This document shows, one piece after another, positions 10,780-40,546 of a DNA stretch of 64,000 bases. The notes under the pieces are model-generated. The model worked only from the letters and a program-made list of their open reading frames with translations, ran no database searches and had not been told where the DNA came from. Where the stretch lies: the IMG/VR virus record IMGVR_UViG_3300024255_000001; one strand, 5' to 3'. This stretch comes from a virus. How positions within the stretch are numbered: position 1 is the first letter of the stretch; each line of letters opens with the position of its first letter. A program made the position numbers and the translations under genes.

Positions 10780-11988
10780 TTAAAATAATGCTGATGCGTA
10801 GATCAGGTTAGTGTCTAATGTTTGTAGTCCAATTGCTTTCAATACTCTATTAAGTGGATCTATCATACATTTTTCAAATTGTGTATCAAAATCAACTTGT
10901 GGTGCAATCTCATAAGGATGCTCACCTGGTAGATACGCATAAACTTCTGAGATTGGTGTTTTACAGTTGTAAATTTTTAACTTCTCACCATTACCAATTA
11001 CTTTATACTTATTCTTATATTTTTGATTTTGATTTAAAATATAATTATAGTAGCCAGCTGCTTTTACGTTAGCTGGACATTTTAGTCCTACTTGAAATTC
11101 AATTTGATCGTCGACAATATACTTCTCAATATTATTAGTTCTACGATTAAATGAAATGTCATCGACATCTGCTAGTTGAAATTCTTTTTTAGATGCTTTC
11201 ATAAATGCAACTAATTCTTGTAATTCTTCAGCACCGGGGGTTTTTTGTGATTTAAACAAAATCCTAAGCGCTTCTACTAATTTCTCTCTAGCAAATTTAG
11301 GAGTTGAGGATTGAATAGTATCAAATCCAATGGTCTTTACTTTCTTTAGAGACTTATGTCTATCAGTAACTTCTAGTTTATCGTCCCAAGCAATGTTTTG
11401 AATATACTTTTTCTTTGACATCCAAATACCATTATATGCTAAAGATTCTAATTCAAAGAATAAGAAGTTATCTGTATTTCTAGAAGAGGCATACTTCTTC
11501 ATACATACTGTAATATAATCCTTAAGTCTAAATGCATAGAATGCTAAGATAAACTCATCAAGTGGTAGAGCTTTAGTGTCATCATTCCAAACAATAGTTT
11601 CATATAGATCTTGAAACTGTACGTAACAAGAATCTGTATCAATATAGATTACTGCAGGCTTTTCAACTTTACCTTTTACTGTTAAGCCGAATTGCTCATG
11701 TACTTTAATATCTTTATGCCAAAACTCTTGACAATACTTATTTAAGATAGACTCAGAGTAGAGGATAGCGTTTTTACCCTGTTTTGTAATAGACTCTGCA
11801 ATATCTATATTAAAGAAGTGAAACCATTTGTTACCGAATGCACCATAGATAGAGTTAAGAGTTAATTTTACTGCTTGTTCATAGGCAGTATATTTAGCAG
11901 ACATCTGCTTGTAGTGATCTACAAGCAGCCCTGCCTCTTCTCTACTAAGTTGATCGATAGGTTTCTCAGTGAGTTTTGTTATATCCAT
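10780..11988 (-). CDS. Family B DNA polymerase, C-terminal subunit (gp43B-like)
   Basis: Motif B KLTLNSIYGAFG, motif C YIDTDS, KKKY; lacks the exonuclease domain and motif A. Confidence 0.92.
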   Translation of the reverse strand: MDITKLTEKPIDQLSREEAGLLVDHYKQMSAKYTAYEQAVKLTLNSIYGAFGNKWFHFFNIDIAESITKQGKNAILYSESILNKYCQEFWHKDIKVHEQFGLTVKGKVEKPAVIYIDTDSCYVQFQDLYETIVWNDDTKALPLDEFILAFYAFRLKDYITVCMKKYASSRNTDNFLFFELESLAYNGIWMSKKKYIQNIAWDDKLEVTDRHKSLKKVKTIGFDTIQSSTPKFAREKLVEALRILFKSQKTPGAEELQELVAFMKASKKEFQLADVDDISFNRRTNNIEKYIVDDQIEFQVGLKCPANVKAAGYYNYILNQNQKYKNKYKVIGNGEKLKIYNCKTPISEVYAYLPGEHPYEIAPQVDFDTQFEKCMIDPLNRVLKAIGLQTLDTNLIYASALF

Positions 11989-15871: not shown

Positions 15872-17278
15872 TTAGAGCTTAAATTTTTTTTCGATTTCAT
15901 GCGCTTTTTCATAATATGTATAAGAAGTTTTCTTGTAGTCTTTTCTTTGATCATATAGATCTGCTAAAATCTTTTTAAGAATACTATCTTTCTTCTGATA
16001 TACTACGCCATTCTCACAAACAATTACTGCTTCATCTTTACGACGCTCAGCTATTTGCGATTCCTCTACCATTTCAACGAATGAATCGGGCGAGATATTA
16101 AACTGCCTCATGATGGATGGATATAGCGATGCAAAGTCAAATGCACTTACACCACCATAATATCCAACAATTGGTTGTTTAACAAAAGCACCCTCGTACT
16201 TACTATCCTTCTTACCATCTTCTCTATCGTATTCTACACCGATACGTTTACCCTGTTCGGTTAGTTTACGAGCCATTAGAGATTCGGTAACAGCCACTGG
16301 TGAAGCGGCTTTATATAGTGGCATTCTAGTTATTGTTGCTAAAGTAAGCAGTACTTCCATCGATCTAAGCTTTTGATCGATATAGTAAACTAGACATGAG
16401 TCAACCACATTATAGAAAACATACTTTTGAAAGTCGTTTTCATATAGGTCTTGTAAGCTACCACTATATTGTATTTTACTTATACCCTCAAGGACTGCAC
16501 CAGAAACAAATGCTAATGCATTAGATTCTTTTACTGCAACCGATCTATCATATTTATCGTATAATTGCATGTAGTCCAAAATACCCATGTGAAGCGGGCG
16601 AGAGTCTTTTTTATCAAGAGCGCCAGTACAAGCAACTTCTGTTAAATCAATTTGTAAGATTTTACATCTGTTGACAATATACTGCCAGTCATAATTGATA
16701 AAGTTCCAACCTGTCATCATAGGAAATTTAGGTAAAAACTTATGTAAGAAAGCGTAGACCATGTCATACTCGTTCTTAAATTTGTAATAACTAAATTCCC
16801 AATCAGTATCATACCCATTAAAGTGAGCATTCGTATCGGATTCGATCTTATTAATTTGATCGGCCGAAAGATCTTCTAGTCCAAGCACGATTGCTTTTCT
16901 TTCTGGAGTAATAATAGAAAAGGTTAAGATTCTAGACTTAGCCTCTTCAGGTTTGGGGAAGCCATCAACAATCTCTGTCTCAATATCGACAAAGTATGTT
17001 CGTGGCATATTGAACTCAAAGATTTCATCTTGGTCTTTTTGTGGTAGACCGTCCATGAAATAAAGAAGTGAAAACTTATTAAAAGATCTAGAGATAGACT
17101 TCTTAACATGGCGACCATCCCAGTTTCTAACTGTTGCGTCTTTCCATCTGTCATTATCTTTAGCTACAACCCAGTTTTGAAACTTATCAATGTTGTATCT
17201 TTTAAAGGCAACTTCACCCTGTTTATCGTAATATGATACGATTACTTCTTTCTCTCTTTGTTCAATATCTAATAACAT
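15872..17278 (-). CDS. Family B DNA polymerase, N-terminal subunit (3'-5' exonuclease plus motif A; gp43A-like)
   Basis: ExoI DIET, ExoII GWNFINYD, ExoIII YNVVD, YEGAFV, motif A DFASLYPSIM; ends in the first fingers helix. Confidence 0.93.
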   Translation of the reverse strand: MLLDIEQREKEVIVSYYDKQGEVAFKRYNIDKFQNWVVAKDNDRWKDATVRNWDGRHVKKSISRSFNKFSLLYFMDGLPQKDQDEIFEFNMPRTYFVDIETEIVDGFPKPEEAKSRILTFSIITPERKAIVLGLEDLSADQINKIESDTNAHFNGYDTDWEFSYYKFKNEYDMVYAFLHKFLPKFPMMTGWNFINYDWQYIVNRCKILQIDLTEVACTGALDKKDSRPLHMGILDYMQLYDKYDRSVAVKESNALAFVSGAVLEGISKIQYSGSLQDLYENDFQKYVFYNVVDSCLVYYIDQKLRSMEVLLTLATITRMPLYKAASPVAVTESLMARKLTEQGKRIGVEYDREDGKKDSKYEGAFVKQPIVGYYGGVSAFDFASLYPSIMRQFNISPDSFVEMVEESQIAERRKDEAVIVCENGVVYQKKDSILKKILADLYDQRKDYKKTSYTYYEKAHEIEKKFKL

Positions 17279-23433: not shown

Positions 23434-23474
23434 CTAATATAATAAAAAAGCCTGACATAAAAAAATATCAGGCT
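23434..23474 (-). promoter_or_regulatory. Terminator hairpin (23449-23474) overlapping a possible Bacteroidota-type early promoter
   Basis: AGCCTGA/TCAGGCT stem plus U-tract; TATATTAG at 23434-23441 resembles the TAnnTTTG -7 box; the -33 box is only TTTT. Confidence 0.45.
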
Positions 23475-23498: not shown

Positions 23499-25217
23499 TT
23501 ATAGTGGCCAAATCATGGATGTGCCTGCATCATACCATTCACTATACCACCCTTTTTTATTAAGTTCCTTTTCCCACTTGTTATCTACACCAAACGTTCT
23601 GTTCTTGTAGTCTTCAGAGTAGTAGTCATAAATTACTCTACCCTTATACTCGTCCATATTTTCACCTGAAACCCAGATACCACCTTGAGAACCGTTAAAC
23701 TCTTCAGTAGTTCTTACAAAGTCCATATACTTTTCGATCCACTTAATCATAGCATCTCTATCCAGTTTCTTTTCGGTAACCAATGATTCTGCAAATGCTT
23801 CAATATCCCATTGAATTCTTTGCATTACATCTTCACCTCTAAATTCTTTCTTAGCCCATTGTAATAGACCTGGTTCATGTTTAGCATTTTGTGCCATATC
23901 GAATGCATTCTTCCAACCATCATTAGAAGCTACATCTTCAATCCATTGATCGTATTTCTTTCTATTCCATCTTACTGTCTTAACAGCTTTCTTGTGTGGT
24001 CCGTCTCCTAATGTAGAAGTGGCAGCGTCATAAGAACCTGGAATAAAAACTCCTAAGTCTTTACCGTCACCATATTTAATCTCTTTTCTAAATCTTCTTA
24101 AAGAATATTCACCACCTTCAATTTGCTTTCTTCTTGAAACTTCTCCCTGAGATGTACCGATTGCAATCTTCATATCTTCAGCTTTCTTTGGATCAGTTTC
24201 AAAATGTAAATCTCTTACTGCGTTTTCAAGTAAGGCCTCTTCATAAATTTTGGAGTCTGTCGCCTCTGACATCATTTCCTCTTGAGCGAACTTGTTATAC
24301 TCTTTTGACCACTTCTTCCATTCAGCATCAGTAGCATAGTCTTCTAATACATCGACTACATCTTTATTACCTTTTTGTTCGATAACTTGATCTGCAATCC
24401 ATCTACCTGCTTTTGCGTTTAAGTAGTAAAGTGCTCCGGCATCAGAGAATTTGTAAGCTTCAGTTAACCATGCCATTGCAGAATGCCAACAGTCTTCAAT
24501 ATCTTTACGTCTAAAACCAGCAGTATCTAATGTACCCCAAAAACCATAGGATTCATTAACATCATCAATTGAATATTGATTTTTCTTACCAAACTTAAAT
24601 GCCTCGCTAACCAATGATTCACTTACAAATAAATTAAACTGTGTATATAGATTAAAGTTTTCCATCTCTAATTTCTTTTTTGTTTTATCTTTCTTAGTCT
24701 CTTCCTCGTCATCATCAATATCTGCGACAGCAGGAACATCACCAGAACCTACACCACCATCAGAAGGTAGAACCACAGGGCCCATACCGCCTATATTAGC
24801 ACTAGGTGTAATATTTTGTGCTGCAAGTGCAACATTTTCATCTACTGCAACACCTCGCTTTTTTAAGATCTTTTCAATTTCTTGGTAAGCTTTCTTGTAT
24901 TCCGATTTAGAGTAGTGCATTCCTTTAGCATAGTTAGCATAACCATCTAATGCTCCATTATACATTCCTAGTAATTCTTCATCTGACATACTATTATTAA
25001 ATACAAACGGGCCAATAAATGCTTCATCTACCGTCTCTGGTAAATTATCATGTTTTGTTGAAGCGTATTTCTTTAGATCTTTCTTTGTCATTTCGTCTGA
25101 TAATGATTTTACTTTGTCTCTGTAAGCTGGGTCGATGTCTGAGATTTCCATGTCGCCGGATTTAACAGCGTATGCCATTCCCATTAATCTTTGTTGTGAC
25201 TTACTTACAGAAGGCAT
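23499..25217 (-). CDS. Multi-module probable internal head protein with DUF3008-like N-terminus
   Basis: PSVSKSQQRLMGMA..KYASTKH..LPE start; modules separated by VDE, ESLVSE, LLE, ESLVTE. Confidence 0.55.
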   Translation of the reverse strand: MPSVSKSQQRLMGMAYAVKSGDMEISDIDPAYRDKVKSLSDEMTKKDLKKYASTKHDNLPETVDEAFIGPFVFNNSMSDEELLGMYNGALDGYANYAKGMHYSKSEYKKAYQEIEKILKKRGVAVDENVALAAQNITPSANIGGMGPVVLPSDGGVGSGDVPAVADIDDDEEETKKDKTKKKLEMENFNLYTQFNLFVSESLVSEAFKFGKKNQYSIDDVNESYGFWGTLDTAGFRRKDIEDCWHSAMAWLTEAYKFSDAGALYYLNAKAGRWIADQVIEQKGNKDVVDVLEDYATDAEWKKWSKEYNKFAQEEMMSEATDSKIYEEALLENAVRDLHFETDPKKAEDMKIAIGTSQGEVSRRKQIEGGEYSLRRFRKEIKYGDGKDLGVFIPGSYDAATSTLGDGPHKKAVKTVRWNRKKYDQWIEDVASNDGWKNAFDMAQNAKHEPGLLQWAKKEFRGEDVMQRIQWDIEAFAESLVTEKKLDRDAMIKWIEKYMDFVRTTEEFNGSQGGIWVSGENMDEYKGRVIYDYYSEDYKNRTFGVDNKWEKELNKKGWYSEWYDAGTSMIWPL

Positions 25218-25218
25218 A

Positions 25219-25773
25219 TTATTTTGCGTCTATTTGGATATATTCTGAATCTCTGATTTCAAGATTATTATTACCAACTTGGCTATCATATTCACCATAG
25301 ATAACATCCTTGCTATTTGCTAATGGAGAATTCATCATTCCAGTTTTATCAATCTTCTTGTATAACTTGTTACCGTTAACATCATCCGGGAAACCAACAT
25401 TAATTACCATCTCGTTGTACTTTGCGTAAGATATGTATAAAGCGCCAGAACCGTCTGAACTGTTTAATCCATTGATTTCATCAACTTTCCATTCTTCAGT
25501 TAAGTTAGCTGTTACAAATAATACTGACTCCATGTCTTTTGCTCCTTTTTCAACAGCATCTAAAATAATCTTTTCAGCATCTTTCTTAAAACCGCTCCAT
25601 TCTTTATTAACTTCTTTTAAAGTTGCAGCTGAATCTCCTTCATATTTAACTTTTGCAATTTCTTGTTTAAAGGCTTGCATTACTTTACCTATAATGCCTT
25701 TAGCCGCATAGATTCCTGTCATTCTATATGACTTTTCGTTTAAAAATTGTTCGAATGTTGGGATTGTTTTCAT
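25219..25773 (-). CDS. Probable internal head protein
   Basis: Begins MKTIPTFEQFLNE, resembling the T4 internal-protein capsid-targeting sequence. Confidence 0.55.
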   Translation of the reverse strand: MKTIPTFEQFLNEKSYRMTGIYAAKGIIGKVMQAFKQEIAKVKYEGDSAATLKEVNKEWSGFKKDAEKIILDAVEKGAKDMESVLFVTANLTEEWKVDEINGLNSSDGSGALYISYAKYNEMVINVGFPDDVNGNKLYKKIDKTGMMNSPLANSKDVIYGEYDSQVGNNNLEIRDSEYIQIDAK

Positions 25774-25785
25774 ATCTCTATTATA

Positions 25786-28344
25786 TTACCAAGCGTAATC
25801 GAATCCTTCGATTTTAGCTATTTTTTCTTTAAGTGATAAAGCGTAATTCTTAATCTCTCTTTTATACCAAGATTCAGATGAACCAAATCTTTTTTCAGAT
25901 TCTTCTTCTTGTCTAACATAATCACAATATCTAGAATAATCATCTAATATATTTGACATGTGATTAGAAGCATCTCTTAATTTAACCTCTTTTCCTTTTG
26001 CACTTTGACCAATTTTGATTTCATCGTATCTAGTCTTTTCACCACTAGCTAAACCTGTTTTAATTTGATCGGTTAACATATCGATTGCATCTGCTACCAT
26101 TTTATCTAATGGCATTGTTGCAGCCTTAGTAGATAAAATTTGGTGGTATCTGTCGTTGTTAGCTTTCTTAAAATCTTTATCATTAGTAAATGCAATTGCA
26201 CCTGATTTAGCTTCAGCTCTAGCTGCTCTTAATTGGTCAGTAGAATACTTTTGTCTAATTAGGTCTAGGTTAATAACAAGAACTCTATCAGAAACTTCTG
26301 CGATTCTTTTACCATTATTAAGTCCAGTTCCTGACCAGCCTCTGTATTTATGTGATACACCAACTTGGTCATCTTTACCTTTTTTACCGTCTTTCTTAAA
26401 TGCTCTATTTTGTGAGTATCTAGACCAGTCATTAGTATAAAATTCTCTATCGCCAGACATTGCTGCTATTAGAGTACCTCCACCTGGTATAGTTTTTAAA
26501 GCACCATAACCAGCATCATAAGGAGTATATGGATTTTCTTTTTCGTTATCAGATATAAAGAATAGTATATGTTTTGATCCACCATGTTCTTTAAACACCT
26601 TAGTTGGATCATTACTTATTACCATATCCTCATCACCTACTTTATCTAATGCAACTTTAGCTAATTGGTAAAAACCGCCAGCTAATTGCTTTAAATTTTG
26701 CTTACCGTATTTACCTTCTTTGTTACTCATTAGAACGCTAGCTAGTAAGCTGCTGCCTAATGCTTCGTTAAGAAAGTTAGCTCCAACGAAGTCGCTAAAT
26801 GACTCAAACAAGTTTATTTCGTTTTTCATATTTGTATTTGTATTTTCTTCTAGTTTTTTTGCGGCTAAATCTTTATCTCTTTTAGAAACATTATCTAAGT
26901 AGGAACCATCTCCCCAGAATTTAACAACTAATTCAGTTTGAGTAGTTGAATGCATGCCTGGTTTGTAGACTGCAATATCTCTTAGTTTTTTATTAGAAGC
27001 GATAGTTTTCTTCATAAAGTCTAGTGCTTGTTTCTCGTTTCTAAACTTTTTCATAGCACTTACGCCGTCACTATAAATAACTTCATAGTTTTCAGTAATT
27101 GCTGATTCTTCAACATGTAGATTTACATATCTGCTACCTTTTTCTGAGTAAACTGAAGTAATTTTAAAATCACCTTTAATTGATTTACCAGTATCTTGTT
27201 TGTAGTATTTAGCATAATAAGCTTTAAAGAATAAGTTTGGTTCTAGTTCTCCAAAGAAGTGTGACAGTTTACCTACATAAAATTCAGCTTTAGGATATAC
27301 TTTTAAAACATCTTTTTCTGTTTCAGCATCTAGAACTGCTTTATCAAATTCTTTTACAAATTTAGCTTCAGTAACTTCAGATTCTTTAACAACTAATTCT
27401 GCATCTATAGCTACTTCATGTGAAATAGTCTCTAAACCATTAATTAAAATTGTACCATCCTTTTGCATGCCGGTAACTTCACCAGAATCAAAAGGTTTTT
27501 TAGAACTTCTGCTTAGAATAGAAACTCTATCGCCTATTTTAAATTTAGCTTCAGTAACTGATTCATCAATACCTTTGTAAATTAAAGTGTCCCAATGAAC
27601 ATCCTGTACCTCGTCTCTATAATCAGCATATACGTCAACTTCCCAATTACCGCCTTCTTGATCTACTCCCATGAAATAAAGATCTTTACCCTCATTACCG
27701 TGGTCATCAATCGTATCATATTCGTCAAATTCTATTTCGTATTTCTTACCTTTATATTTAACAACAGCACTAGGCCAATCAGATTTTGTAACCTTAATCT
27801 TCTCGTTTACTACTGACTCTTCGATATACTCTCCAAGTTCTGGATCGTCCCATCCATCAGGAGATGCTAAAACTGATTGTAGATCTTCTCTTGAACCTGT
27901 TAGCTCAACTTCTGGCCAACCACTCGGTCCACTAGGATCTAAAACTTTCATTGTAACTTTATGTTTCTTTAAAAGTTTTTTAAGTATCTTTGATTTAGGA
28001 TCCATTGCATCCATAACTACTGTAGCTTCGAATACTTCAGCAGCTTTAGGAGTTTCATCTAGTTCAGCTAGAATTCTACGACCCCATTTTGAAAGCTTTA
28101 CACCCTCTTCAGAAACATTAAAGTACTTTCTATTTCTAGAAGTCCATTGGCTTGAACTAGTAGATAATTCAGAAAGAATCTTGTTAAACTCTTCTCTTGT
28201 CACTACACCGTCTTTAATAGCTTGTAGGACTGCATTTCTTACATTAGCAGTTTTACCTACAGTTTGAGCTGGGTGGTTCTCTGTATATTTTCTTTTGATT
28301 TGCAATTTCTTGCCTTCCGATAAAAAGTCTTCGAATTTCGTCAT
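25786..28344 (-). CDS. Multi-module probable internal head polyprotein
   Basis: MTKFEDFLSE start; seven modules separated by EVFE, ESVVNE, ESVTE, ESEVTE, ESAITE, FLNE. Confidence 0.6.
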   Translation of the reverse strand: MTKFEDFLSEGKKLQIKRKYTENHPAQTVGKTANVRNAVLQAIKDGVVTREEFNKILSELSTSSSQWTSRNRKYFNVSEEGVKLSKWGRRILAELDETPKAAEVFEATVVMDAMDPKSKILKKLLKKHKVTMKVLDPSGPSGWPEVELTGSREDLQSVLASPDGWDDPELGEYIEESVVNEKIKVTKSDWPSAVVKYKGKKYEIEFDEYDTIDDHGNEGKDLYFMGVDQEGGNWEVDVYADYRDEVQDVHWDTLIYKGIDESVTEAKFKIGDRVSILSRSSKKPFDSGEVTGMQKDGTILINGLETISHEVAIDAELVVKESEVTEAKFVKEFDKAVLDAETEKDVLKVYPKAEFYVGKLSHFFGELEPNLFFKAYYAKYYKQDTGKSIKGDFKITSVYSEKGSRYVNLHVEESAITENYEVIYSDGVSAMKKFRNEKQALDFMKKTIASNKKLRDIAVYKPGMHSTTQTELVVKFWGDGSYLDNVSKRDKDLAAKKLEENTNTNMKNEINLFESFSDFVGANFLNEALGSSLLASVLMSNKEGKYGKQNLKQLAGGFYQLAKVALDKVGDEDMVISNDPTKVFKEHGGSKHILFFISDNEKENPYTPYDAGYGALKTIPGGGTLIAAMSGDREFYTNDWSRYSQNRAFKKDGKKGKDDQVGVSHKYRGWSGTGLNNGKRIAEVSDRVLVINLDLIRQKYSTDQLRAARAEAKSGAIAFTNDKDFKKANNDRYHQILSTKAATMPLDKMVADAIDMLTDQIKTGLASGEKTRYDEIKIGQSAKGKEVKLRDASNHMSNILDDYSRYCDYVRQEEESEKRFGSSESWYKREIKNYALSLKEKIAKIEGFDYAW
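27358..27559. repeat. 19-bp direct repeat AAATTTAGCTTCAGTAACT at 27358-27376 and 27541-27559
   Basis: Identical copies 183 bp (61 codons) apart, both encoding VTE-AKF. Confidence 0.85.
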
Positions 28345-28346
28345 GA

Positions 28347-28760
28347 TTATTTTACTTTAATTTTTGCTTGGTGTCCATTAGTTTCAGTGTATTGAAATGA
28401 AAATTTAGACTTTGCAAATAAAGTACCCATTGTAAAAGAAACAAAAGTTCCTTCTGGGTTTTTCATTGCTACGTTATATGCGTCTCCAGCTGCAGCCTCG
28501 TCATCAAAAATACCGATAATATTCTTTGAAGTTGAAGATCCTATTCTAATTTCACCCTGTAGTCTAACAGATTGCCCATTAAAATCTACATTGTTATGTG
28601 CCATTAATAAATACTTAGTTGCACCCTTTTCTGGAAGGTTATCACTATGTTCTCCAAACTCGGTTCTTGTATTAAAGTAATATGAACCAAACGGTATGCT
28701 TTCATTTACTGCTTGATTTGAGCTTTCTCTAAAGCTTTCGAATGATTTTATATTTTTCAT
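28347..28760 (-). CDS. Probable internal head protein
   Basis: Begins MKNIKSFESFRES...AVNE. Confidence 0.55.
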   Translation of the reverse strand: MKNIKSFESFRESSNQAVNESIPFGSYYFNTRTEFGEHSDNLPEKGATKYLLMAHNNVDFNGQSVRLQGEIRIGSSTSKNIIGIFDDEAAAGDAYNVAMKNPEGTFVSFTMGTLFAKSKFSFQYTETNGHQAKIKVK

Positions 28761-28779
28761 ATTAATATGTTATATTTGT

Positions 28780-30639
28780 TTATATATTCTTTAAAAAATC
28801 ATCGAAGGTTAGGAATTCTGGTTGTGCAGATTCTGCAGCAACTCCCATCGAGTCTTCTAATTTCATTTTTAGTTCTCCGTACATACCATGTATATCCTTA
28901 GGAGTTAATTTCTTAAATAGTCTTTCATCACCATCAAGCATTGCGTTTCTAACCTGAGTTGCTGAGATATTCTTACCTGATCTTGGAATTTCAAATAAAC
29001 CAAAATCGTCTCTTACGCCTAGATCGTCTCTATATTCTTGTTTATCTGCTTGATAACTATAGACTTTCATTCTATCGGTTCCAGTTCCCCATAATACTGG
29101 CTCGTATTGCGGTCTTAATTCATTAAACATTTTATCAATTGCTGCAGTAGGTAAAATCTTTACATCTTCAATTGGATATGAAGATTTTAATTTTTGTAAC
29201 ATTGATAGTTGAGTATCTTCATCATAAGGTCTCTTAAATGCATCTTCTGCTTTCTTAGTTCTAGACTTAATTAAAAAGATAACTACTGGATAACCGTTTT
29301 GTTTATAGATAGTTTCAATAACTTTAGCATGGCCTAATGTAAATGGCTGGAATCTACCAACAAACATATTTACAGGCTTCTTACCTTGATCTTTATACTT
29401 AACAGTTAAGCCTTCCATGATTGGACTGACTTGAGCTGAAATTTTTTGGTTTAATAAATATTGTTTAAAATCCATTACGTCTGATTCATTTGCTTTTGCC
29501 ATTATTAAACCCTCAATGGTTTCAACGATCTCGTTGATCTGCTCCATTAAATCTTTATTAATAAGGTCAGTTTCTTTAGTTCTCTTTTTTCTAAAAGAGC
29601 CTAATACAATTTTAAATAACTCAGATAGTATCTTATCTTGTACTAAAGTAAGTGTCTTTTCGTTTTGAATAAACTTATTGTTTAATTCAAACATAGGAGA
29701 TTCAGAGAAGTCTGCGGAGTCAAATTTAGCACCAATATATTTTGTAGCATTTTTTTCTACATAATTATTAAAAATAGATGACATTAATTCTAAATATCTT
29801 CTATCTGTCTTTTCTTCTTTTAATTCTATTGATGAGAAATCAAATTGTGCTAAATGTTCTACAACATCTAAAATTGTAATTTGATACATGTCTGATGGTT
29901 TTCTTGGATCCATCTGTTTTTTATTAAACTTCTCTAATTTAAAAGATTGTAATTCTGTTCCGTCATGAAAATTAACAATAAACCCTGCAACATCTTTTGA
30001 AAGATCGTTCATTAAAGCAGATTGCTTCATATTCCCATTGAAAATACCGAATACTGTTCTTGTAAAGCTAGGCTTCTCAAAGTCTTCAAACGTCTGTTCA
30101 AATTCATTAACCGACATTGCAAGAATTTGTTTTAATCTATCCTTTTGACCTGAGTCAAGTTGACCTTCAAATAATATAGGTGGTTTTGAAACATTTAGTT
30201 TATTCGCCCACTTATTAAGTATCTTGGTATCTCTAATTACCTTTCTAACTTTATTAGGATTGGATGGTTGTAAAACTTGTATATGCGTTAAAATTAAATT
30301 TGATTCTGGTAAAACATCATACTCCACATCAATTGTTTTATTATCGCCAAGATATTCAAATCCAAACTTCCAGTCAAATGGCATATCTTCTATAACTTCT
30401 TTAGAAACAGACTTAAAGTGGCGAATTGCGTTCTCGTAGTATCTGACGATTGTACGATCTACTATATCCATTGGTTGCTTAGAACCAGATTTATAGTATG
30501 CAAAATCAGTACCTTGTCTTCTTGCATGAAAAGATGAACCGTTGATTTTCTCAGTCACAATACATTTGTGGCTAAGTAGTTTATCAACGTCTGCTGTGTT
30601 AGCTCCTTCGAAATATGTTTTTAAATTGTCTAATGCCAT
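28780..30639 (-). CDS. Fusion of an RNA-ligase-like domain and a cytidylyltransferase/NMNAT-like nucleotidyltransferase
   Basis: N-terminal TEKING (ligase motif I); C-terminal GRFQPFTLGH, GTDR, ISATQVR (HIGH superfamily). Confidence 0.7.
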   Translation of the reverse strand: MALDNLKTYFEGANTADVDKLLSHKCIVTEKINGSSFHARRQGTDFAYYKSGSKQPMDIVDRTIVRYYENAIRHFKSVSKEVIEDMPFDWKFGFEYLGDNKTIDVEYDVLPESNLILTHIQVLQPSNPNKVRKVIRDTKILNKWANKLNVSKPPILFEGQLDSGQKDRLKQILAMSVNEFEQTFEDFEKPSFTRTVFGIFNGNMKQSALMNDLSKDVAGFIVNFHDGTELQSFKLEKFNKKQMDPRKPSDMYQITILDVVEHLAQFDFSSIELKEEKTDRRYLELMSSIFNNYVEKNATKYIGAKFDSADFSESPMFELNNKFIQNEKTLTLVQDKILSELFKIVLGSFRKKRTKETDLINKDLMEQINEIVETIEGLIMAKANESDVMDFKQYLLNQKISAQVSPIMEGLTVKYKDQGKKPVNMFVGRFQPFTLGHAKVIETIYKQNGYPVVIFLIKSRTKKAEDAFKRPYDEDTQLSMLQKLKSSYPIEDVKILPTAAIDKMFNELRPQYEPVLWGTGTDRMKVYSYQADKQEYRDDLGVRDDFGLFEIPRSGKNISATQVRNAMLDGDERLFKKLTPKDIHGMYGELKMKLEDSMGVAAESAQPEFLTFDDFLKNI

Positions 30640-30647
30640 AATAGTTT

Positions 30648-31919
30648 TTATCTACCGTATTTAATAATGCCCATTAACTGGTTAATAGCGGCAAAAGTAC
30701 CCGTTAACTTGAATGTTTTACCATTGTATTTAAAGACTAGGCCTTCTGTTGGAATGATTGACTCAATACCGCCGATACCTTCTAGCCTCTTTAATTCTTT
30801 TTCTACCTTCTCAATCTGTTTTAGATCACCGTTCTTTTTAACTTTATCTGCCTCAGTTCTGATTTGCTTATGTAATCTTGCTTTCTCAGCTTCTGGATTA
30901 GCAGCAACAAAATTGGAAACGTTCTTTAAAACATCTGCACCTAATTCTAAAAATAGGTTCTCGAAAGGTAGAATGTTTTCTTTATACTTCTTGTTTCTTT
31001 GACCATCAAAATCTTTGACGGCTTTTGCTTGTTCTGGAGTAACTGCATTCTTTAATTCTCTCATATTTAGAGTCTTCTTGTCTAAATATGCCCATCTTAA
31101 TAAGAGTCCCTCTTTTAATACTGAGTCTAAATCTCCAAAGTTCTCTTCGATTTGGTTTCTCCACCACATCTCGTGATACATTTTAACCTCATCTTGATCT
31201 GATAGACTATAAGTATCTCTCAGTTTATTTATCGCCTTTTCGTAATAGCCGACTCTATCATCAAAGTTAATGTCTTTTCCTAACTTTAAAATTTGAGGGG
31301 GAATTATTGTAAACGTATTTTGCACATCCGCTTTTAGCTCTTTAAGTGCTTTAACTATTTCTGATGCGATATTCTCTTCACCTATGATATTACCCTCACC
31401 ATCAGTAACTTTCATACCGTGGAATTGAATAACATCTCTGTCATAATAAATTACATTAGGGTTTTTAGAGTAAATTAACTCCATATTGATAAAAGACTTA
31501 CCATCTTGGAATACAGATTGGTCCTTAAGCTTTGGGAGTGCGTCTGCTAGGTCTTTAGCAGCAAAGATGAATGTTTCTTCAACCAGCTTCGAAGCGTGGC
31601 CAGTGAACATCTTAATGATACCATTTAAGTCGAGTGGATTGGCTAATTGTCCCTTATTTCTAGCGAACATAGCATTACCATCCTTTACAGTTGCAAATAC
31701 ATTCTGACCATCTGTCTTTTCAGTTGGTGCCTCTTCAAAATCAAGACCTCCTTGTAGTGCAGATCTTACAATAGTTTTAAAATCAGCAAATGTTAATGAG
31801 TGGTCATCGAATGGATGCATCATGTGGCCAGCGGCCCCACCTTCAAATACGAAATTGTCCAAGTTATTGACCTGGACTTTCTCGCTTAAGAATTCTTTAA
31901 ATGTATATAGTTTCTTCAT
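30648..31919 (-). CDS. ATP-dependent ligase-fold protein (DUF6267-like)
   Basis: EGGAAGHMMHPFD, TEKTDGQN (KxDG), EGLVF, KLTG motifs; MKKLYTFKEFLSE leader. Confidence 0.65.
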   Translation of the reverse strand: MKKLYTFKEFLSEKVQVNNLDNFVFEGGAAGHMMHPFDDHSLTFADFKTIVRSALQGGLDFEEAPTEKTDGQNVFATVKDGNAMFARNKGQLANPLDLNGIIKMFTGHASKLVEETFIFAAKDLADALPKLKDQSVFQDGKSFINMELIYSKNPNVIYYDRDVIQFHGMKVTDGEGNIIGEENIASEIVKALKELKADVQNTFTIIPPQILKLGKDINFDDRVGYYEKAINKLRDTYSLSDQDEVKMYHEMWWRNQIEENFGDLDSVLKEGLLLRWAYLDKKTLNMRELKNAVTPEQAKAVKDFDGQRNKKYKENILPFENLFLELGADVLKNVSNFVAANPEAEKARLHKQIRTEADKVKKNGDLKQIEKVEKELKRLEGIGGIESIIPTEGLVFKYNGKTFKLTGTFAAINQLMGIIKYGR

Positions 31920-31938
31920 AAGAAGTTTTAGATTGTTT

Positions 31939-33588
31939 TTATCCTAACGATGATTGTAATGCACCAACTGCTGCACCATAGTCACCGTCGTGTTTAGTTA
32001 ATAAACCGTCTACAACTTCTTGAGCTTTTTCTTCATCGAATTCGTCACCGAATGCTTGTTGTAAAACTGAGAATGCATACTCTTTAAAATCTTCATCAGA
32101 CTTTACTTCTGCTTCGTTAGTTGTTTCTTCTTCAACAAATTCTTCTGCGTTTTCTTTATCATCAGCATCAACTGCTTCTACGTCAAATTCTTCATCGCCA
32201 ACTTTAAAGGTCTTTTCACCTTTTGCAATCGCTTCAGCTCTTGCAGCTCCGAATGCATTTCCTTCTTCAACATCTTCAGTTTCTTCAACAAATTCTTCTG
32301 CGTTTTCTTTATCATCAGCATCAACTGCTTCTACATCATATTCTTCATCACCAACTTTAAAAGTCTTTTCGCCTTTTGCAATTGCCTCTGCTCTTGCAGC
32401 ACCAAATGCATTTCCTTCTTCAACTTCTTCGTTTGATTCTTTAATTACTGGAAATTTCTTACCGTTAAACTCAAAGTCTTCAGCATCTTCTTCAATAGCT
32501 TTAGCTCTTGCAGCTAAGAATGCATTACCTTCATTCATCACAGACTCGTTAGCCCAGATTAATTCAAATGCATCTACTATTTTTTGTGCTGGTTGAGAGT
32601 AACCAAATCCATCTAAGAATACTGCCATACCTTCAACGATACCGATACCTGACCATCCAGCTGCATTAGCTAGACCGGAGGAATGTTCGTCTAATAGGTT
32701 AATAATTGTTTTCTTACCAACAGGAATTGCCATGCCACCTAAATTATCAATGTCTACCATGATAGTACTAATCGTACCCCCTAGTGCTTTACTTACTGGG
32801 TCTCTGTATGAGTGGAAGTTAGCGTCTGTTAGGGCTTCAGCTAATAAGTATCTACATGCTCCTAAAAAACTTTCAGAGTTTGCAATTGCAGAATGCTTCA
32901 TAAAGAATGTATTTAAAAACTTAGAAACCTTCTTTGCGTCTCTTGCGTTACCTTTACTTGGTTTAAATGCTTCATTAATAATCAGTGACTCAAATGCTGG
33001 AATTAATTCTTTATCTCCATATACATCTGCCATATACCATTTACCATCTCTTTCATCAAACAAGTAAACGAATTCTGCTCCTGCTCTTTCGCTAGCATCA
33101 GAAATATAATCTTCGATTTTCTTAGCGTCACCTTTTAGAGTTGTTTTATCTCCGTAGAAATTAATCTTACTAGGATCTGCTTCCAAACCTGAGCCACCCC
33201 CTTTCTTAAGTAAAAACTTAACTGTTCCGGAATTCATGTAACCCTTCTTAATTGTAGGTAACATGTGGTCTGGATAACCATCGTAGTGCATATACACTGA
33301 CTCTATTTTTCCTCTTTTAGAAATAATACCAACTTGTGATCTGGTACCTTCTTCAATGATAGCTAAAGACTCAGATACTTCAGAAGCACCTAGCTTAGCA
33401 AAAAATTTGTTTCTGTCTTCTTCGTTTAAATCTTTTACAGATGTAACGCCAAACTCAGATAATAATGTTTCGAATTGGTAAGCTGACTCTGTACGAGCTG
33501 CTTTTTGTTCTTCTTCTAATTTCATTTTTGTTGCTTCAGCGGAAGCGTTAGCGAAATCTTCAAAAGACTGTAGTTTTAATGAACCCAT
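31939..33588 (-). CDS. Acidic multi-module probable prohead-core/internal protein
   Basis: SFEDF leader, linkers IIEE, ESLIINE, ESVMNE, VEE; three GNAF repeats; first gene after a late box. Confidence 0.6.
   Translation of the reverse strand: MGSLKLQSFEDFANASAEATKMKLEEEQKAARTESAYQFETLLSEFGVTSVKDLNEEDRNKFFAKLGASEVSESLAIIEEGTRSQVGIISKRGKIESVYMHYDGYPDHMLPTIKKGYMNSGTVKFLLKKGGGSGLEADPSKINFYGDKTTLKGDAKKIEDYISDASERAGAEFVYLFDERDGKWYMADVYGDKELIPAFESLIINEAFKPSKGNARDAKKVSKFLNTFFMKHSAIANSESFLGACRYLLAEALTDANFHSYRDPVSKALGGTISTIMVDIDNLGGMAIPVGKKTIINLLDEHSSGLANAAGWSGIGIVEGMAVFLDGFGYSQPAQKIVDAFELIWANESVMNEGNAFLAARAKAIEEDAEDFEFNGKKFPVIKESNEEVEEGNAFGAARAEAIAKGEKTFKVGDEEYDVEAVDADDKENAEEFVEETEDVEEGNAFGAARAEAIAKGEKTFKVGDEEFDVEAVDADDKENAEEFVEEETTNEAEVKSDEDFKEYAFSVLQQAFGDEFDEEKAQEVVDGLLTKHDGDYGAAVGALQSSLG
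32128..32424. repeat. 153-bp-period tandem duplication (GNAFGAARAEAIAKGEKTF... unit)
   Basis: Copies at 32128-32271 and 32281-32424, with a degenerate third copy at about 32440-32530. Confidence 0.9.
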
Positions 33589-33625: not shown

Positions 33626-35134
33626 TTATATATCACCGTCAAAAGTAACATTTTTTACCTCAAACGGGAACTTCTGTTCCTTATAGATCTTTTGACGTGC
33701 TTTGGAATGTCTAATAAGATAGTTATCCCAATCTGGTGATGATAAGTCATCTACGAAATCAATGATATTTACCTCTGATTTTGTATGGTGTTTTCTTAGT
33801 CCCCTACCGATTGATTGTCTAATTATGACTTCCGATTTAAACGATTCGGTAAAGAAGATGTTATGTATTTTCTTAATCGAGATCCCTGTTGAGAACGTAC
33901 CATAAGAGGCAACAATGACAACCTGTGCGCCTGCTTCCATCTTCTTCTTGTATTCTTCACGGATGTCTTTGTCGGTATTACCATCCACATAATAGATGGG
34001 TTTGTCACTATCTTGGCGCAGTTTCTCATAAATTCTTTTGCCGTGTTCGATTCGGTGGAAAAGAACAAGGCTATTCCCACGTACTCTGGAAATAATGTTA
34101 CAAATGAAAGCCAAGCGCCCTGTTGAATTGATGACATAATTACTTTCAAATCTGAAAACGTCTTTACTTTCATATCTGTTTTGGGACATCTCATAAAAAG
34201 CATTCTTTGTGCTCTGAGGTGCATAATCCATTTTTATTACTTTCACATTACAACCTGCAATGTGACCTTCATCTTGAAGGAATGCCGCATTGACCTCTGT
34301 AATCACAGGGCCTGTATGTGCCATTAGGGTTAATCTATCTAACGTCTTTGCTTTTGGAATTGTCCCCGAGAGTCCAAATCGATAGTTTGCAGCAGTACAT
34401 TTGTGTAGAATTGTTTTAATAGAAGTAGACTTAGCCTTGTGAGTCTCATCGATGATTACAGCGTCAAACTGTTCAAAGTATTCTTTATCTTTCTTAACAA
34501 GAGATTGATACGTACCAATTACCATGTTTCTACCTGGTCTAATCTTTTGACCAGAATAGATCTGTTGTACCTTAATATTCGTTGCATTACGCCAGTTATA
34601 GTCCATAAAGTCCTCAGAGGCCTGTACAACTAACGAAACGTTTGGGACAATAAGTAATATCCTTCCAGCCTTGCCCTTCTCTAACATATACGCAATAGCC
34701 ATATACGTTATCAAGGTTTTACCAGCTGATGTTGCTAATTCACTTAGACATCTTCTAAATTTTAGGATATTATATGCTGCCTCGATTTGATAATCTCTTG
34801 GGTCTAATTCATGGCCATCAAAATAGTCTTCTGCCCACTTTGTAAACTCTTCTTGTTTTACCGAAGGATCGAATAGTGAAGTAACACCATTCATCTTTAA
34901 CTCGAACTTGTATTGTTTACACAAATCCATCACCTCTTTCCAAAGCCCAGATGGAATCCACTTATCATCCTTAATATAGGAGATATAGCCATCCCATAGC
35001 CCCTTCTTCACAAGAGGGTGAAAGCGCCAGTTTTCAATTCTACGATTAAATGTAATATTGAGTTGTTCTATTTCTAGTTCACTCGCATCATCAATACGCA
35101 GAAACTGCTTATTATCTGTTAAACTCAGTTCCAT
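33626..35134 (-). CDS. uvsW: UvsW-like SF2 helicase
   Basis: RDYQ, LATSAGKT, DETH, GLSGT, QSIGRGLR. Confidence 0.92.
   Translation of the reverse strand: MELSLTDNKQFLRIDDASELEIEQLNITFNRRIENWRFHPLVKKGLWDGYISYIKDDKWIPSGLWKEVMDLCKQYKFELKMNGVTSLFDPSVKQEEFTKWAEDYFDGHELDPRDYQIEAAYNILKFRRCLSELATSAGKTLITYMAIAYMLEKGKAGRILLIVPNVSLVVQASEDFMDYNWRNATNIKVQQIYSGQKIRPGRNMVIGTYQSLVKKDKEYFEQFDAVIIDETHKAKSTSIKTILHKCTAANYRFGLSGTIPKAKTLDRLTLMAHTGPVITEVNAAFLQDEGHIAGCNVKVIKMDYAPQSTKNAFYEMSQNRYESKDVFRFESNYVINSTGRLAFICNIISRVRGNSLVLFHRIEHGKRIYEKLRQDSDKPIYYVDGNTDKDIREEYKKKMEAGAQVVIVASYGTFSTGISIKKIHNIFFTESFKSEVIIRQSIGRGLRKHHTKSEVNIIDFVDDLSSPDWDNYLIRHSKARQKIYKEQKFPFEVKNVTFDGDI
33627..33634 (-). promoter_or_regulatory. 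Late-type promoter box GATATATA for the internal-protein block
   Basis: Overlaps the uvsW stop codon. Confidence 0.65.
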
Positions 35135-40162: not shown

Positions 40163-40534
40163 TTAGAATCTTTTACCCATCGCAGCACCAAGAGCGGCAC
40201 CGACTAATCTGGAGGTTAATAGATCGTAGAATATACCTTTTTGAATACCCAGTACTTTAGCTAACATCTTACCGATAGATTTTCCTAAGGCAAAACCAGT
40301 TAAACCACCGATAATAGAACCTAAAAGACCTTCTTCAACTAGGTCTTCTTCTAATCTGTCTAAATCAAACTCACCAGTCTCTTCATTTAAGTATTGTTTT
40401 ACAAACTCTTCTAGAGCTTGATCAACCTTTTCCTCTAATTCAGGAGTCCACTCAGACTGTAGGCCTTCTGTTAATAGAGCCATATCAGTTTCTGTGAGTT
40501 GTTGTTCAACTAAGTAATCATTAAATGTTTTCAT
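40163..40534 (-). CDS. Probable internal virion protein: acidic pro-region plus glycine-zipper C-terminus
   Basis: MKTFNDYLVE leader, LVEE then GLLGSIIGGLTGFALG...VGAALGAAMG; late box 40539-40546. Confidence 0.6.
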   Translation of the reverse strand: MKTFNDYLVEQQLTETDMALLTEGLQSEWTPELEEKVDQALEEFVKQYLNEETGEFDLDRLEEDLVEEGLLGSIIGGLTGFALGKSIGKMLAKVLGIQKGIFYDLLTSRLVGAALGAAMGKRF

Positions 40535-40538
40535 AATG

Positions 40539-40546
40539 TATATATC
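40539..40546 (-). promoter_or_regulatory. Late-type promoter box GATATATA
   Basis: 4 nt upstream of the ATG at 40534. Confidence 0.6.

What the first reader, a model, noticed from the sequence alone, without database searches (positions are those of the whole stretch)
23499..33588. Capsid-cargo locus: targeting signals plus protease-cleavable polyproteins of small domains
Seen: a late-promoter block of seven genes, five starting with a F-x-x-F signal (MKTIPTFEQFLNE, MTKFEDFLSE, MKNIKSFESF, MKKLYTFKEFLSE, LQSFEDF), with further internal or C-terminal copies (FESFSDF, TFDDFL). Three proteins are strings of unrelated modules, mostly 60-130 aa, joined by a stereotyped linker: ESVVNE 27802, ESVTE 27550, ESEVTE 27367, ESAITE 27091, ESLVSE 24603, ESLVTE 23772, ESLIINE 32971, ESVMNE. 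Known: T4 internal proteins use an MKTYQEFIAE-type signal, are cut by gp21 after (I/L)xE, are injected with the DNA, and IPI* blocks a restriction enzyme. Inference: one signal loads a polyprotein that matures into many small injected effectors, a compact, extensible anti-defence payload.
Basis: partly seen in the sequence, partly recalled or inferred. Interest (0 to 1): 0.85.

Follow-up and report, generated by a model that had tools for sequence, protein, structure and literature searches.

The report
Capsid-addressed, cuttable phage cargo polyproteins
A marine giant relative of phage T4 has seven adjacent genes, most carrying T4's "load me into the head" tag and three built as strings of small reshuffled modules joined by a stereotyped linker that fits the head protease's cutting rule, so they are probably packed into the capsid and cut apart there, although no cut, packaging or injection has been measured for this phage.

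Summary
Seven back-to-back minus-strand genes (23499-33588) are present. Five start with an MK..F-x-x-F..E peptide very like the T4 IPII/IPIII tag. The strict linker occurs 6 times in the three long proteins (0.05 expected) and never in the other 48 ORFs.

In 57 related viral contigs the linker (E-S-V-V-N/T-E, then A/K) bounds about 90-aa modules that are gained, lost, permuted and moved between three protein frames. Free-standing versions of a module start with the tag, and fused versions keep it as an internal fossil.

Five related contigs carry a T4-type head protease, and the small protein beside it starts with the same tag. In cyanophage S-SCSM1, relatives of two parts (the NMNAT-like domain of g3 and the DUF3008 module of g7) were found in purified virions by mass spectrometry.

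Cleavage at the linkers, packaging in this phage, injection and any anti-defence role remain inferred. No module matches a known defence or counter-defence family.

I found no paper describing such polyproteins. This scan has noted the same kind of system before, on other DNA and elsewhere in this genome. Verdict: a new variant of the T4 internal-protein system.

The parts
33627..33634 (-). GATATATA promoter-like motif upstream of g1
   Evidence: 14 of the 15 RATATATA sites in the window lie on the coding strand; most of the related ATATATA sites are intergenic. The same motif lies upstream of the portal-adjacent, protease and capsid genes in relatives.
31939..33588 (-). g1, a 549-aa polyprotein. 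It has an N-terminal L-Q-S-F-E-D-F peptide and linkers at aa 73-79, 200-206 and 348-353. Module 80-199 matches phrog_1987. The tail is very acidic, with a 51-aa mini-module in tandem.
32971..32991 (-). Linker ESLIINE in g1. The other g1 linkers are at 33352-33372 and 32530-32547.
30648..31919 (-). g2, 423 aa. Tag at aa 1-13 (31881-31919), a disordered spacer at aa 16-34, then a ligase-like nucleotidyltransferase fold with an invariant K-x-D-G motif (31701-31721).
   Evidence: M1 and E13 are invariant and F10 is at least 90% conserved in 24 orthologues. AF2 model. RNA/tRNA ligase matches at Z 5-7. The tag and spacer are absent from the fused Microcystis-phage homologue.
28780..30639 (-). g3, 619 aa. 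An N-domain of unknown function, then a cytidylyl/adenylyltransferase (NMNAT-like) domain at about aa 420-610, then a conserved C-terminal T-F-D-D-F-L-K-N-I (28783-28809).
   Evidence: PF01467 at 34.5 bits against a cut-off of 21. NCBIfam. The C-terminal motif is conserved in 30 orthologues. It is 27% identical (E 2.6e-9) to S-SCSM1 ORF91, a virion protein.
28781..28788 (-). AATATATA promoter-like motif upstream of g4.
28347..28760 (-). g4, 137 aa. A two-part tag (F-E-S-F, a spacer, then V-N-E; aa 1-20, 28701-28760) followed by one module.
   Evidence: In L038 the same module is fused behind another module with an internal tag copy.
25786..28344 (-). g5, an 852-aa polyprotein: tag (aa 1-10), module A (11-96), module B (107-175), M2 (182-260), M3 (266-320), M4 (327-412), M5 (419-505), a fossil tag (506-527), and a conserved C-terminal domain (528-852).
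27802..27819 (-). Linker ESVVNE in g5. The other g5 junctions are 28027-28056, 27550-27564, 27367-27384 and 27091-27108.
   Evidence: pLDDT dips at aa 97-104, 178-180 and from 266 onward.
26764..26829 (-). Internal fossil tag in g5 (M-K-N-E-I-N-L-F-E-S-F ... F-L-N-E), directly before the C-terminal domain.
   Evidence: It is almost identical to the N-terminus of the free-standing 347-aa homologue P0015.
25219..25773 (-). g6, 184 aa. Tag at aa 1-13 (25735-25773) followed by one module.
   Evidence: In one orthologue a spacer is inserted between F-x-x-F and L-N-E.
23499..25217 (-). g7, a 572-aa polyprotein: a DUF3008 module (aa 1-65), an internal tag-like F-N-L-F-V-S-E-S-L-V-S-E (24603-24638), the linker ESLVTE (23772-23789), and a conserved C-terminal module.
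   Evidence: The DUF3008 part is 49% identical to S-SCSM1 ORF93, a virion protein.
23449..23474 (-). Terminator-like hairpin (10 pairs) with a T run, 25 nt after the g7 stop.

Best explanation
The block is a cluster of head-internal (cargo) proteins of an uncultured marine T4-like giant phage. The proposed mechanism has six steps.

1. Expression (inferred). The genes are transcribed with the head genes. The promoter-like motif GATATATA precedes g1, a one-base variant precedes g4, and a terminator follows g7.

2. Targeting (inferred from form and context). A short helical N-terminal peptide, M-K-x(1-4)-[FY]-x-[EQD]-F-[LIV]-x-E, on a flexible spacer docks each protein onto the scaffolding core of the prohead. 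This is what the T4 capsid-targeting sequence does.

3. Processing (inferred; the key unshown step). The T4-type Glu-specific head protease removes the tag after its last Glu. It also cuts g1, g5 and g7 at each E-S-hydrophobic-V/I-N/T/S-E linker. Seven genes would yield about 20 mature pieces. These include an RNA-ligase-like enzyme (g2), an NMNAT-like nucleotidyltransferase (g3) and about 15 small domains of unknown function.

4. Evolution (shown). Tag and linker are interchangeable module borders. Modules are inserted, deleted, permuted and moved between three frames exactly at these borders, and genes fuse and split there.

5. Nucleotide-level conservation (observed; the role is inferred). 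The linker is also conserved as DNA, with consensus GAA TCA GTA GTT AAT/ACT GAA. It probably serves as the short homology at which modules recombine.

6. Delivery (untested). Whether the pieces stay in the head and enter the cell with the DNA, and what they do there, is unknown.
For: - Motif statistics.
- Direct comparison with the T4 IPI, IPII, IPIII and gp23 sites read from the T4 record, and with the published CTS and gp21 rules (PMC9026906; PMC5694885).
- Five related contigs that carry the block have a PF03420 protease (45-51 bits, cut-off 27) and a PF07068 capsid protein (152-158 bits).
- In those contigs the portal-adjacent small protein starts with the same tag, and the capsid protein with L-I-N-E then A-E.
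- The g2 tag residues M1 and E13 are invariant and F10 is at least 90% conserved across orthologues of 59-94% identity, while residues 14-25 vary. The tag is a helix on a disordered spacer.
- There are 124 distinct linker contexts in 99 proteins, with the logo E-S-V-V-N/T-E then A/K.
- Clean linker-to-linker insertions, deletions and permutations occur between close relatives.
- Module families have up to 9 different left and 11 different right neighbours.
- Fusion and fission at tags.
- The AF2 model of g5 has pTM 0.39 but confident separate domains, with pLDDT minima at the linkers.
- Position-specific codon bias in linkers across 84 junction types: P4 Val is GTA in 40 of 45, and P3 Val is GTT in 66 of 73. 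Background is 41% GTA and 52% GTT.
- Relatives of g3's transferase domain and g7's DUF3008 module are virion proteins by mass spectrometry in S-SCSM1. There the transferase also starts M-K-S-F-L-Q-F-L-K-E then A (S-CAM7 likewise).
Against: - No proteomic or biochemical data exist for this phage or its close relatives.
- The window holds no head genes and its genome is not held, so the protease is shown only in related contigs.
- P3 of the linker is mostly Val, whereas T4 prefers Leu/Ile. P3 does differ between lineages, being Ala in SPN3US.
- Most predicted mature modules are acidic or neutral, unlike the basic T4 internal proteins.
- g3 and g7 lack an N-terminal tag.
- In g1 orthologues the linker is not more conserved than the modules.
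- Homology breakpoints are only 2-3 times enriched near strict linkers in the blunt all-against-all test.
- The nucleotide-level conservation of linkers could by itself explain their stereotypy, without any cleavage.
Confidence: 0.6

Rival explanations
1. The proteins are packaged but not cut at the linkers. They enter the head through their tags, but the E-S-V-V-N-E linkers are only inter-domain connectors. These are kept stereotyped because their 18-nt DNA sequence is the recombination joint for module exchange. The proteins then work as intact multi-domain chains.
For: Linker codons are conserved position by position far beyond codon usage. Indels fall exactly at linkers. There is no cleavage evidence. 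In g1 the linker is no better conserved than its flanks.
Against: The linker ends in hydrophobic-x-Glu followed by Ala, Lys, Gly or Ser, just like the tag's own cut site, the capsid protein's N-terminal site and T4's F-L-T-E then A-E. Within this window the linkers differ in codons and residues but keep the E-S..hydrophobic-x-E pattern. Free-standing and fused forms of the same module would give the same mature product only if the junction is cut.
Confidence: 0.2
2. The products are head-core or scaffold material, not delivered effectors. They are targeted and cut as proposed, but serve as assembly or size-determining filler of a very large prohead, like T4 gp67 and gp68. The fragments leave the head before or during DNA packaging and never reach the host.
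For: The modules are mostly acidic, and g1's tail has a net charge of -42, like the acidic T4 gp67. The same tag sits on the portal-adjacent core protein. No effector-like domain was found. T4 core fragments are expelled (PMC9026906).
Against: Rapid module turnover and shuffling is typical of arms-race genes rather than assembly parts. The modules are folded domains, not low-complexity filler. Enzymes (g2, g3) share the tag. NMNAT-like and DUF3008 relatives persist in mature CsCl-purified virions.
Confidence: 0.15
3. The F-x-x-F peptide is a replisome or sliding-clamp docking motif. The block is part of the replication module, and the terminal aromatic peptides tether nucleic-acid enzymes to the clamp or SSB.
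For: The block lies between helicase/primase/SSB and the polymerase genes. g3's motif is at the extreme C-terminus, where T4 clamp-binding tails sit (my own knowledge, not tested here). g2 is ligase-like.
Against: The identical N-terminal peptide heads the small protein inside the head-gene operon in five relatives, and 12.5% of ORFs of very different kinds carry it. It matches the experimentally defined T4 CTS nearly residue for residue. The cyanophage transferase with this N-terminus is a virion protein. T4's own internal-protein genes are also scattered among non-structural genes.
Confidence: 0.05

Closest known systems
Phage T4 internal proteins IPI, IPII, IPIII and Alt: capsid-targeting sequence plus processing by prohead protease gp21
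   Same: A 10-19-residue N-terminal peptide of almost the same sequence. It ends in hydrophobic-x-Glu followed by Ala. The phage has a T4-type protease, scaffold and capsid protein. Otherwise unrelated proteins share only the tag. The genes are scattered outside the head operon.
   Different: Each T4 tag carries a single mature protein. Here, three proteins carry 4-8 unrelated modules in series behind stereotyped internal sites, and modules are exchanged between proteins and phages. The cargo is mostly acidic and includes ligase-like and NMNAT-like enzymes. P3 of the internal sites is Val rather than Leu/Ile. There is no sequence homology to the mature T4 proteins.
Ejection and inner-body proteins of giant phages phiKZ, 201phi2-1 and SPN3US, processed by gp175/gp245 at (S/A/G)-x-E or A-x-E
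   Same: Many head-internal proteins are cut after Glu by a gp21-related protease. Several sites can occur in one protein. Paralogues share conserved N-termini (PMC5694885).
   Different: There the extra sites lie within long (over 100-aa) propeptides that are discarded. No stereotyped linker, bead-on-string architecture or module shuffling has been reported. The motif is different.
NMNAT-like / cytidylyltransferase-like and DUF3008 virion proteins of T4-like cyanophages (S-SCSM1 ORF91 and ORF93; also reported for S-CBWM1)
   Same: They are homologous to g3's C-terminal domain and g7's first module. They sit in a comparable cluster near the primase gene. They have the same kind of N-terminal tag and a C-terminal F-x-x-F-L copy. 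They were detected in purified virions.
   Different: They are single-domain or simple proteins, not polyproteins with linkers. The authors did not connect them with a targeting sequence or with processing.
Polyproteins of RNA viruses and retroviruses cut by a viral protease
   Same: One translation product is matured into several proteins at short consensus sites by the virus's own protease during particle maturation.
   Different: This is an analogy only. The protease family is unrelated, those polyproteins have a fixed order of essential domains, and they are not a shuffled accessory repertoire.

Membership tests
T4-type CTS-bearing head-internal proteins (IP/Alt class) | N-terminal 10-19-residue peptide of the MKT-[YF]-x-EF...hydrophobic-x-E type | tested here: met
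   g2, g5 and g6 match fully. g4 has the two-part form, like T4 IPI. g1 matches partly. Enrichment is 32-fold at N-termini, in a fixed register. g3 and g7 have no N-terminal copy.
T4-type CTS-bearing head-internal proteins (IP/Alt class) | The phage has a gp21-family (Peptidase_S77) prohead protease and a T4-type core and capsid | tested here: met
   PF03420 and PF07068 score over their cut-offs in all 5 related contigs that carry the block or its modules. This is not testable in the window's own genome, which is not held.
T4-type CTS-bearing head-internal proteins (IP/Alt class) | The propeptide is removed by cleavage C-terminal to Glu | not testable with these tools
   The sequence fits (P1 Glu is invariant in g2 orthologues), but no proteomic data exist.
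T4-type CTS-bearing head-internal proteins (IP/Alt class) | Present inside mature heads and ejected with the DNA | not testable with these tools
   The only evidence is indirect: homologues of the g3 C-domain and the g7 N-module are virion proteins by MS in S-SCSM1.
Protease-processed polyprotein (functional class) | Independently folding units separated by recurring sites that match the protease's specificity | tested here: met
   Linker logo. Confident separate domains with pLDDT minima at the linkers and a low pTM. Modules shuffle as units.
Protease-processed polyprotein (functional class) | Demonstrated cleavage into the units | not testable with these tools
   This needs virion N-terminomics or a co-expression assay.
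ATP-dependent RNA/DNA ligase superfamily (covalent nucleotidyltransferases), for g2 | Motif I, K-x-D-G, with the catalytic lysine | tested here: met
   K68, D70 and G71 are invariant in 24 orthologues.
ATP-dependent RNA/DNA ligase superfamily (covalent nucleotidyltransferases), for g2 | Nucleotidyltransferase fold | tested here: inconclusive
   The top structural matches are nearly all RNA or tRNA ligases. Scores are middling: Foldseek E 0.05-0.5, and VIA Z 7.1 with rmsd 5.5 over 174 residues to 6n67. Pfam and PDB sequence searches gave no hit. Atlas look-alike clusters carry DUF6267 in about a quarter of their members.
Cytidylyltransferase-like / NMNAT (PF01467), for the g3 C-terminal domain | Family HMM over its cut-off, and the (H/T)-x-G-H nucleotide-binding motif | tested here: met
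   PF01467 scores 34.5 bits against a cut-off of 21. The motif T-L-G-H is at aa 434-437. The NMNAT equivalog models score far below their cut-offs, so the substrate is unknown.

The most novel reading that the evidence does not exclude
The linker is a dual-purpose element. As protein it is the head protease's cut site. As an 18-nt conserved DNA word it is the recombination joint. Together these make an open-ended cassette system: any small gene dropped between two linkers is automatically loaded into the capsid, released as a free protein and delivered with the genome. Ready-made RNA-ligase-like and NMNAT-like enzymes ride along to pre-empt RNA-cutting or NAD-depleting host defences at time zero.
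Probability: 0.25. Interest if true: 0.85.

Novelty: new variant of a known kind. Interest (0 to 1): 0.62.

Why it matters
T4's capsid-targeting tag and Glu-specific head protease are textbook. They are known as a one-tag, one-protein system, and the injected proteins of most phages are unknown.

If the linkers are cut, this lineage and the many similar ones this scan has flagged have turned that system into a modular delivery platform. Dozens of small, fast-evolving proteins would be loaded per virion from a few genes. That points directly to where first-minute host-takeover or counter-defence proteins of uncultured marine giant phages should be sought. It also gives exact predicted mature termini for each one, so they can be synthesised and tested.

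The tag-plus-linker grammar could also be used to annotate virion cargo from sequence alone, and to engineer multi-protein delivery in T4-type vectors.

It offers an explanation for a published puzzle as well: why NMNAT-like enzymes keep turning up in cyanophage virion proteomes. They carry the tag.

Tried and rejected
- Nucleotide and protein searches of the cultured-phage collection with the whole block and with g5 found nothing.
- The window's own genome is not held, and the nearest record, G001, is a 31-kb fragment without head genes.
- The T4 late promoter TATAAATA is depleted, so it was rejected as the regulatory signal. The sigma-70 scan was below chance.
- Pfam, PHROGs, NCBIfam, PADLOC and PDB sequence searches gave no function for g1, g4, g5, g6 or most of g7.
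- Foldseek of the g5 model against PDB found no match at E <= 0.001. Module A only weakly resembles winged-helix domains (T4 MotA activation domain, prob 0.93; CggR DNA-binding domain, prob 0.98; E about 0.2-0.3).
- The Atlas search gave nothing usable for the g5 C-terminal domain.
- The idea that g2 and the g3 N-domain are paralogues was rejected by BLASTP and by profile-profile comparison (probability 0.2%).
- The first stacked alignment for g5 misplaced 11 fragments and was rebuilt without them.
- The all-against-all breakpoint test gave only a 2-3-fold enrichment near strict linkers. Local alignments run through the conserved linker and many junctions use variant linkers, so direct inspection and segment clustering were used instead.
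- Column conservation in g1 orthologues did not single out the linkers.
- No promoter motif lies before the internal Met of the fossil tag in g5, so a separate internal start is not supported.
- Literature searches for phage polyproteins cut by a prohead protease found nothing.

Full report
WHAT IS THERE

The stretch 23499-33588 holds seven tightly packed minus-strand ORFs, with gaps of 1-19 nt:
- g1: 549 aa
- g2: 423 aa
- g3: 619 aa
- g4: 137 aa
- g5: 852 aa
- g6: 184 aa
- g7: 572 aa

A GATATATA motif lies about 40 nt upstream of g1, and AATATATA lies before g4. A 10-bp hairpin with a T run follows g7.

The block sits between helicase, primase and SSB genes on one side and phosphatase, methyltransferase, DNA-modification and split-polymerase genes on the other. 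The window is about 34% G+C with nearly all genes on one strand. Earlier notes of this scan call the genome a marine T4-like giant phage. I confirmed that for the relatives (below).

CHECKING THE OBSERVATION

All quoted N-termini, the internal and C-terminal copies and all linker coordinates are correct.

The strict linker ES-x-[VILM]-[TNS]-E occurs 6 times in g1, g5 and g7. Residue shuffles give 0.05 (maximum 2 in 1000). It is absent from the other 48 ORFs, 17,254 aa in all.

In 57 related IMG/VR loci found with g5, the tag pattern [FY]xx[FY]-hydrophobic-x-E lies in the first 18 residues of 86 of 690 unique ORFs. It lies in 0.39% of internal 18-residue windows. The register is fixed, with F at residue 7 in 64 cases and at residue 4 in 18. 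The logo is M-K-x-x-x-x-F-E-[EQD]-F-[LIV]-N-E.

IS THE PEPTIDE A CAPSID-TARGETING SEQUENCE?

Read from the T4 record itself:
- IPII and IPIII start MKTYQEFIAE, then Ala.
- IPI has a 19-residue two-part version ending I-T-E, then Ala.
- gp23 is cut at F-L-T-E, then A-E.

Published work shows three things. The first 10 residues of IPIII suffice for packaging. Processing depends on positions 8 and 10. T4 relatives put CTS-like peptides on otherwise unrelated proteins (PMC9026906; PMC3012670).

The window's tags have the same length, the same aromatic spacing and the same hydrophobic-x-Glu ending. g4 and one g6 orthologue show the IPI-like two-part form.

Five related contigs that carry the block or its modules encode a Peptidase_S77 protease and a Gp23 capsid protein. 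The protease there is fused to a long acidic scaffold-like region.

In those contigs:
- The small protein between portal and protease, the position of T4 gp67/gp68, starts with the same tag in every case.
- The capsid protein begins M-A-N-L-I-N-E then A-E.
- The protease begins ...L-L-I-V-E, paralleling T4's L-L-I-E.

The same GATATATA motif precedes these head genes, which supports co-expression with the block. It also precedes some non-structural genes in the window, so 'late' is likely but not proven.

In g2 orthologues (59-94% identity), M1 and E13 are invariant and F10 is at least 90% conserved, while residues 14-25 vary. The AF2 model puts the tag in a short helix (7-15) followed by a disordered spacer (16-34). 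A Microcystis-phage homologue, fused behind a transferase domain, lacks exactly these first 20 or so residues. The tag is therefore a separable add-on.

THE POLYPROTEINS

Ninety-nine non-redundant relatives of g1, g5 and g7 contain 124 distinct canonical linker contexts. The logo is E-S-V-V-N/T-E followed by A/K/G/S. P3 is Val in 94 and Ile in 18.

Cutting at linkers gives internal segments with a median of 92 aa (interquartile range 79-147). These segments behave as units. Family 4 (82 aa) has 9 different left and 11 different right neighbours. The family of g5's module 327-418 has 8 left and 5 right neighbours and occurs in both g5-type and g1-type proteins.

Close relatives differ by clean linker-to-linker events:
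- L001 lacks only g5's 61-aa module M3, and one linker joins M2 to M4.
- L003 has module order A-M2-B'-X-M4 instead of A-B-M2-M3-M4.
- L004, L005, L008 and L010 each carry a different set of modules between the constant first module and the constant C-terminal domain.

Each frame keeps a constant N-terminal part and a constant C-terminal domain.

The AF2 model of g5 has a low pTM (0.39) but confident separate domains at 30-96, 107-176, 182-265 and 529-852. pLDDT minima fall at 97-104, 178-180 and from 266, which are the junctions. M3 and M4 were poorly modelled because the alignment there was shallow.

TAGS AND LINKERS ARE INTERCHANGEABLE BORDERS

The g5 C-terminal domain exists as a free-standing 330-350-aa protein that starts with a tag. 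The N-terminus of P0015 is almost identical to g5 residues 506-527, initiator Met included, so g5 arose by fusion and kept a fossil tag.

In L037 the same protein is split into two genes at that point. In L038 the g4 module is fused behind another module with an internal tag copy.

The same module therefore appears tag-headed when alone and linker- or tag-preceded when fused. That makes functional sense only if the junctions are removed. This is an inference.

NUCLEOTIDE-LEVEL CONSERVATION

Across 84 junction types with different flanking module families:
- P4 Val is GTA in 40 of 45 cases.
- P3 Val is GTT in 66 of 73 cases.
- The background usage in the same proteins is 41% GTA and 52% GTT.

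The consensus word is GAA TCA GTA GTT AAT/ACT GAA. The junction types are not fully independent.

I read this as ongoing copy-and-paste or gene conversion at the linkers, that is, the linker as recombination joint. It also feeds the rival view that the stereotypy needs no protease. The window's own linkers vary in codons and residues yet keep the peptide pattern, which argues for selection on the peptide as well.

EXPERIMENTAL ANCHOR

tblastn with g7 led to the T4-like cyanophage S-SCSM1. There, a cluster next to the primase gene (ORFs 89-93) is annotated as virion proteins.
- ORF93 (DUF3008) is 49% identical to g7's first module.
- ORF91 (NMNAT-like) is 27% identical (E 2.6e-9) to g3's transferase domain. 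It starts M-K-S-F-L-Q-F-L-K-E then Ala.

The paper reports 45 proteins in CsCl-purified virions by mass spectrometry. It notes that NMNAT-like proteins were seen in the virion proteomes of three cyanophages, and it offers no explanation (PMC9602691).

The S-CAM7 homologue has the same N-terminus and, like g3 and ORF93, a C-terminal F-x-x-F-L copy. Their role is unknown.

WHAT THE CARGO IS

- g2: a probable ligase-type nucleotidyltransferase. It has an invariant K-x-D-G motif. Its structural neighbours are almost exclusively RNA or tRNA ligases, but at middling scores.
- g3: joins an unknown N-domain to a PF01467 transferase. Campylobacter T4-like phages have the same two-part build, with a K-x-D-G N-domain.
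- The g2-g3 pair is conserved and syntenic in a 462-kb huge phage.
- g5 module A is basic and weakly winged-helix-like.
- g1 module 80-199 matches a stand-alone phage family, phrog_1987, found next to portal genes in Streptococcus phages.
- Nothing matches defence or counter-defence families.
- Most modules are acidic or neutral.

VERDICT

Shown:
- The motifs and their significance.
- The T4-type context in relatives.
- Modular shuffling at tags and linkers.
- Fusion and fission at those borders.
- DNA-level linker conservation.
- Virion presence of two homologous parts in a cultured relative.

Inferred:
- Targeting.
- Cleavage at linkers (about 0.6).
- Retention and injection.
- Any anti-defence role (about 0.25-0.3).

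I found no paper describing head-protease polyproteins of this kind. The scan itself has flagged the same architecture repeatedly, including once more in this genome.

It is best filed as a new variant of the T4 internal-protein system.

Noticed in passing
window 40163-40534 (-), motif at 40539-40546: A 123-aa ORF starts M-K-T-F-N-D-Y-L-V-E, a near-perfect T4-type tag, directly behind a GATATATA motif.
   Followed up: partly
window, RATATATA sites at 1796, 2858, 3770, 15839, 33627, 38071, 38159(+), 40539, 46149, 54701, 61064: GATATATA is not over-represented, but 14 of its 15 sites lie on the coding strand and most lie just upstream of gene starts. The same motif precedes the portal-adjacent, protease and capsid genes in relatives. 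It is a candidate lineage-specific late promoter replacing T4's TATAAATA, which is depleted here.
   Followed up: partly
L058, L059-L062 (relatives G002-G006): The T4-type prohead protease domain is fused in one ORF of 632-747 aa to a long, very acidic, coiled scaffold-like region. In T4 gp21 and gp22 are separate genes.
   Followed up: no
linkers in L001-L057 (e.g. L012:10001-12916): The linker is conserved as DNA (GAA TCA GTA GTT AAT/ACT GAA), with position-specific Val codons. This suggests an 18-nt recombination joint for module exchange.
   Followed up: partly
L070 (LR756500.1, 462-kb huge phage), L071 (Microcystis phage Mel-JY01), L075 (Campylobacter phage CP20): The g2-g3 enzyme pair is widely conserved. 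It is syntenic in a huge phage, fused as transferase plus g2-like in Mel-JY01, and built as K-x-D-G domain plus transferase in Campylobacter phages. This points to a shared but unknown nucleotide or RNA pathway.
   Followed up: partly
window 32128-32434 (-), g1 C-terminal region: A 153-nt unit is repeated in tandem (2 copies, 92% identical). It encodes a 51-aa mini-module (G-N-A-F-G-A-A-R...) with a third, more diverged copy upstream. The same mini-module occurs inside g5-type proteins of relatives.
   Followed up: partly
window 15872-17278 and 10780-11988 (-): The DNA polymerase is split into two ORFs about 4 kb apart, with ribonucleotide reductase genes between them.
   Followed up: no
window 46093-54663 (-): A 2856-aa ORF lies behind a GATATATA motif, next to tail-fibre-like genes. 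It was not examined.
   Followed up: no
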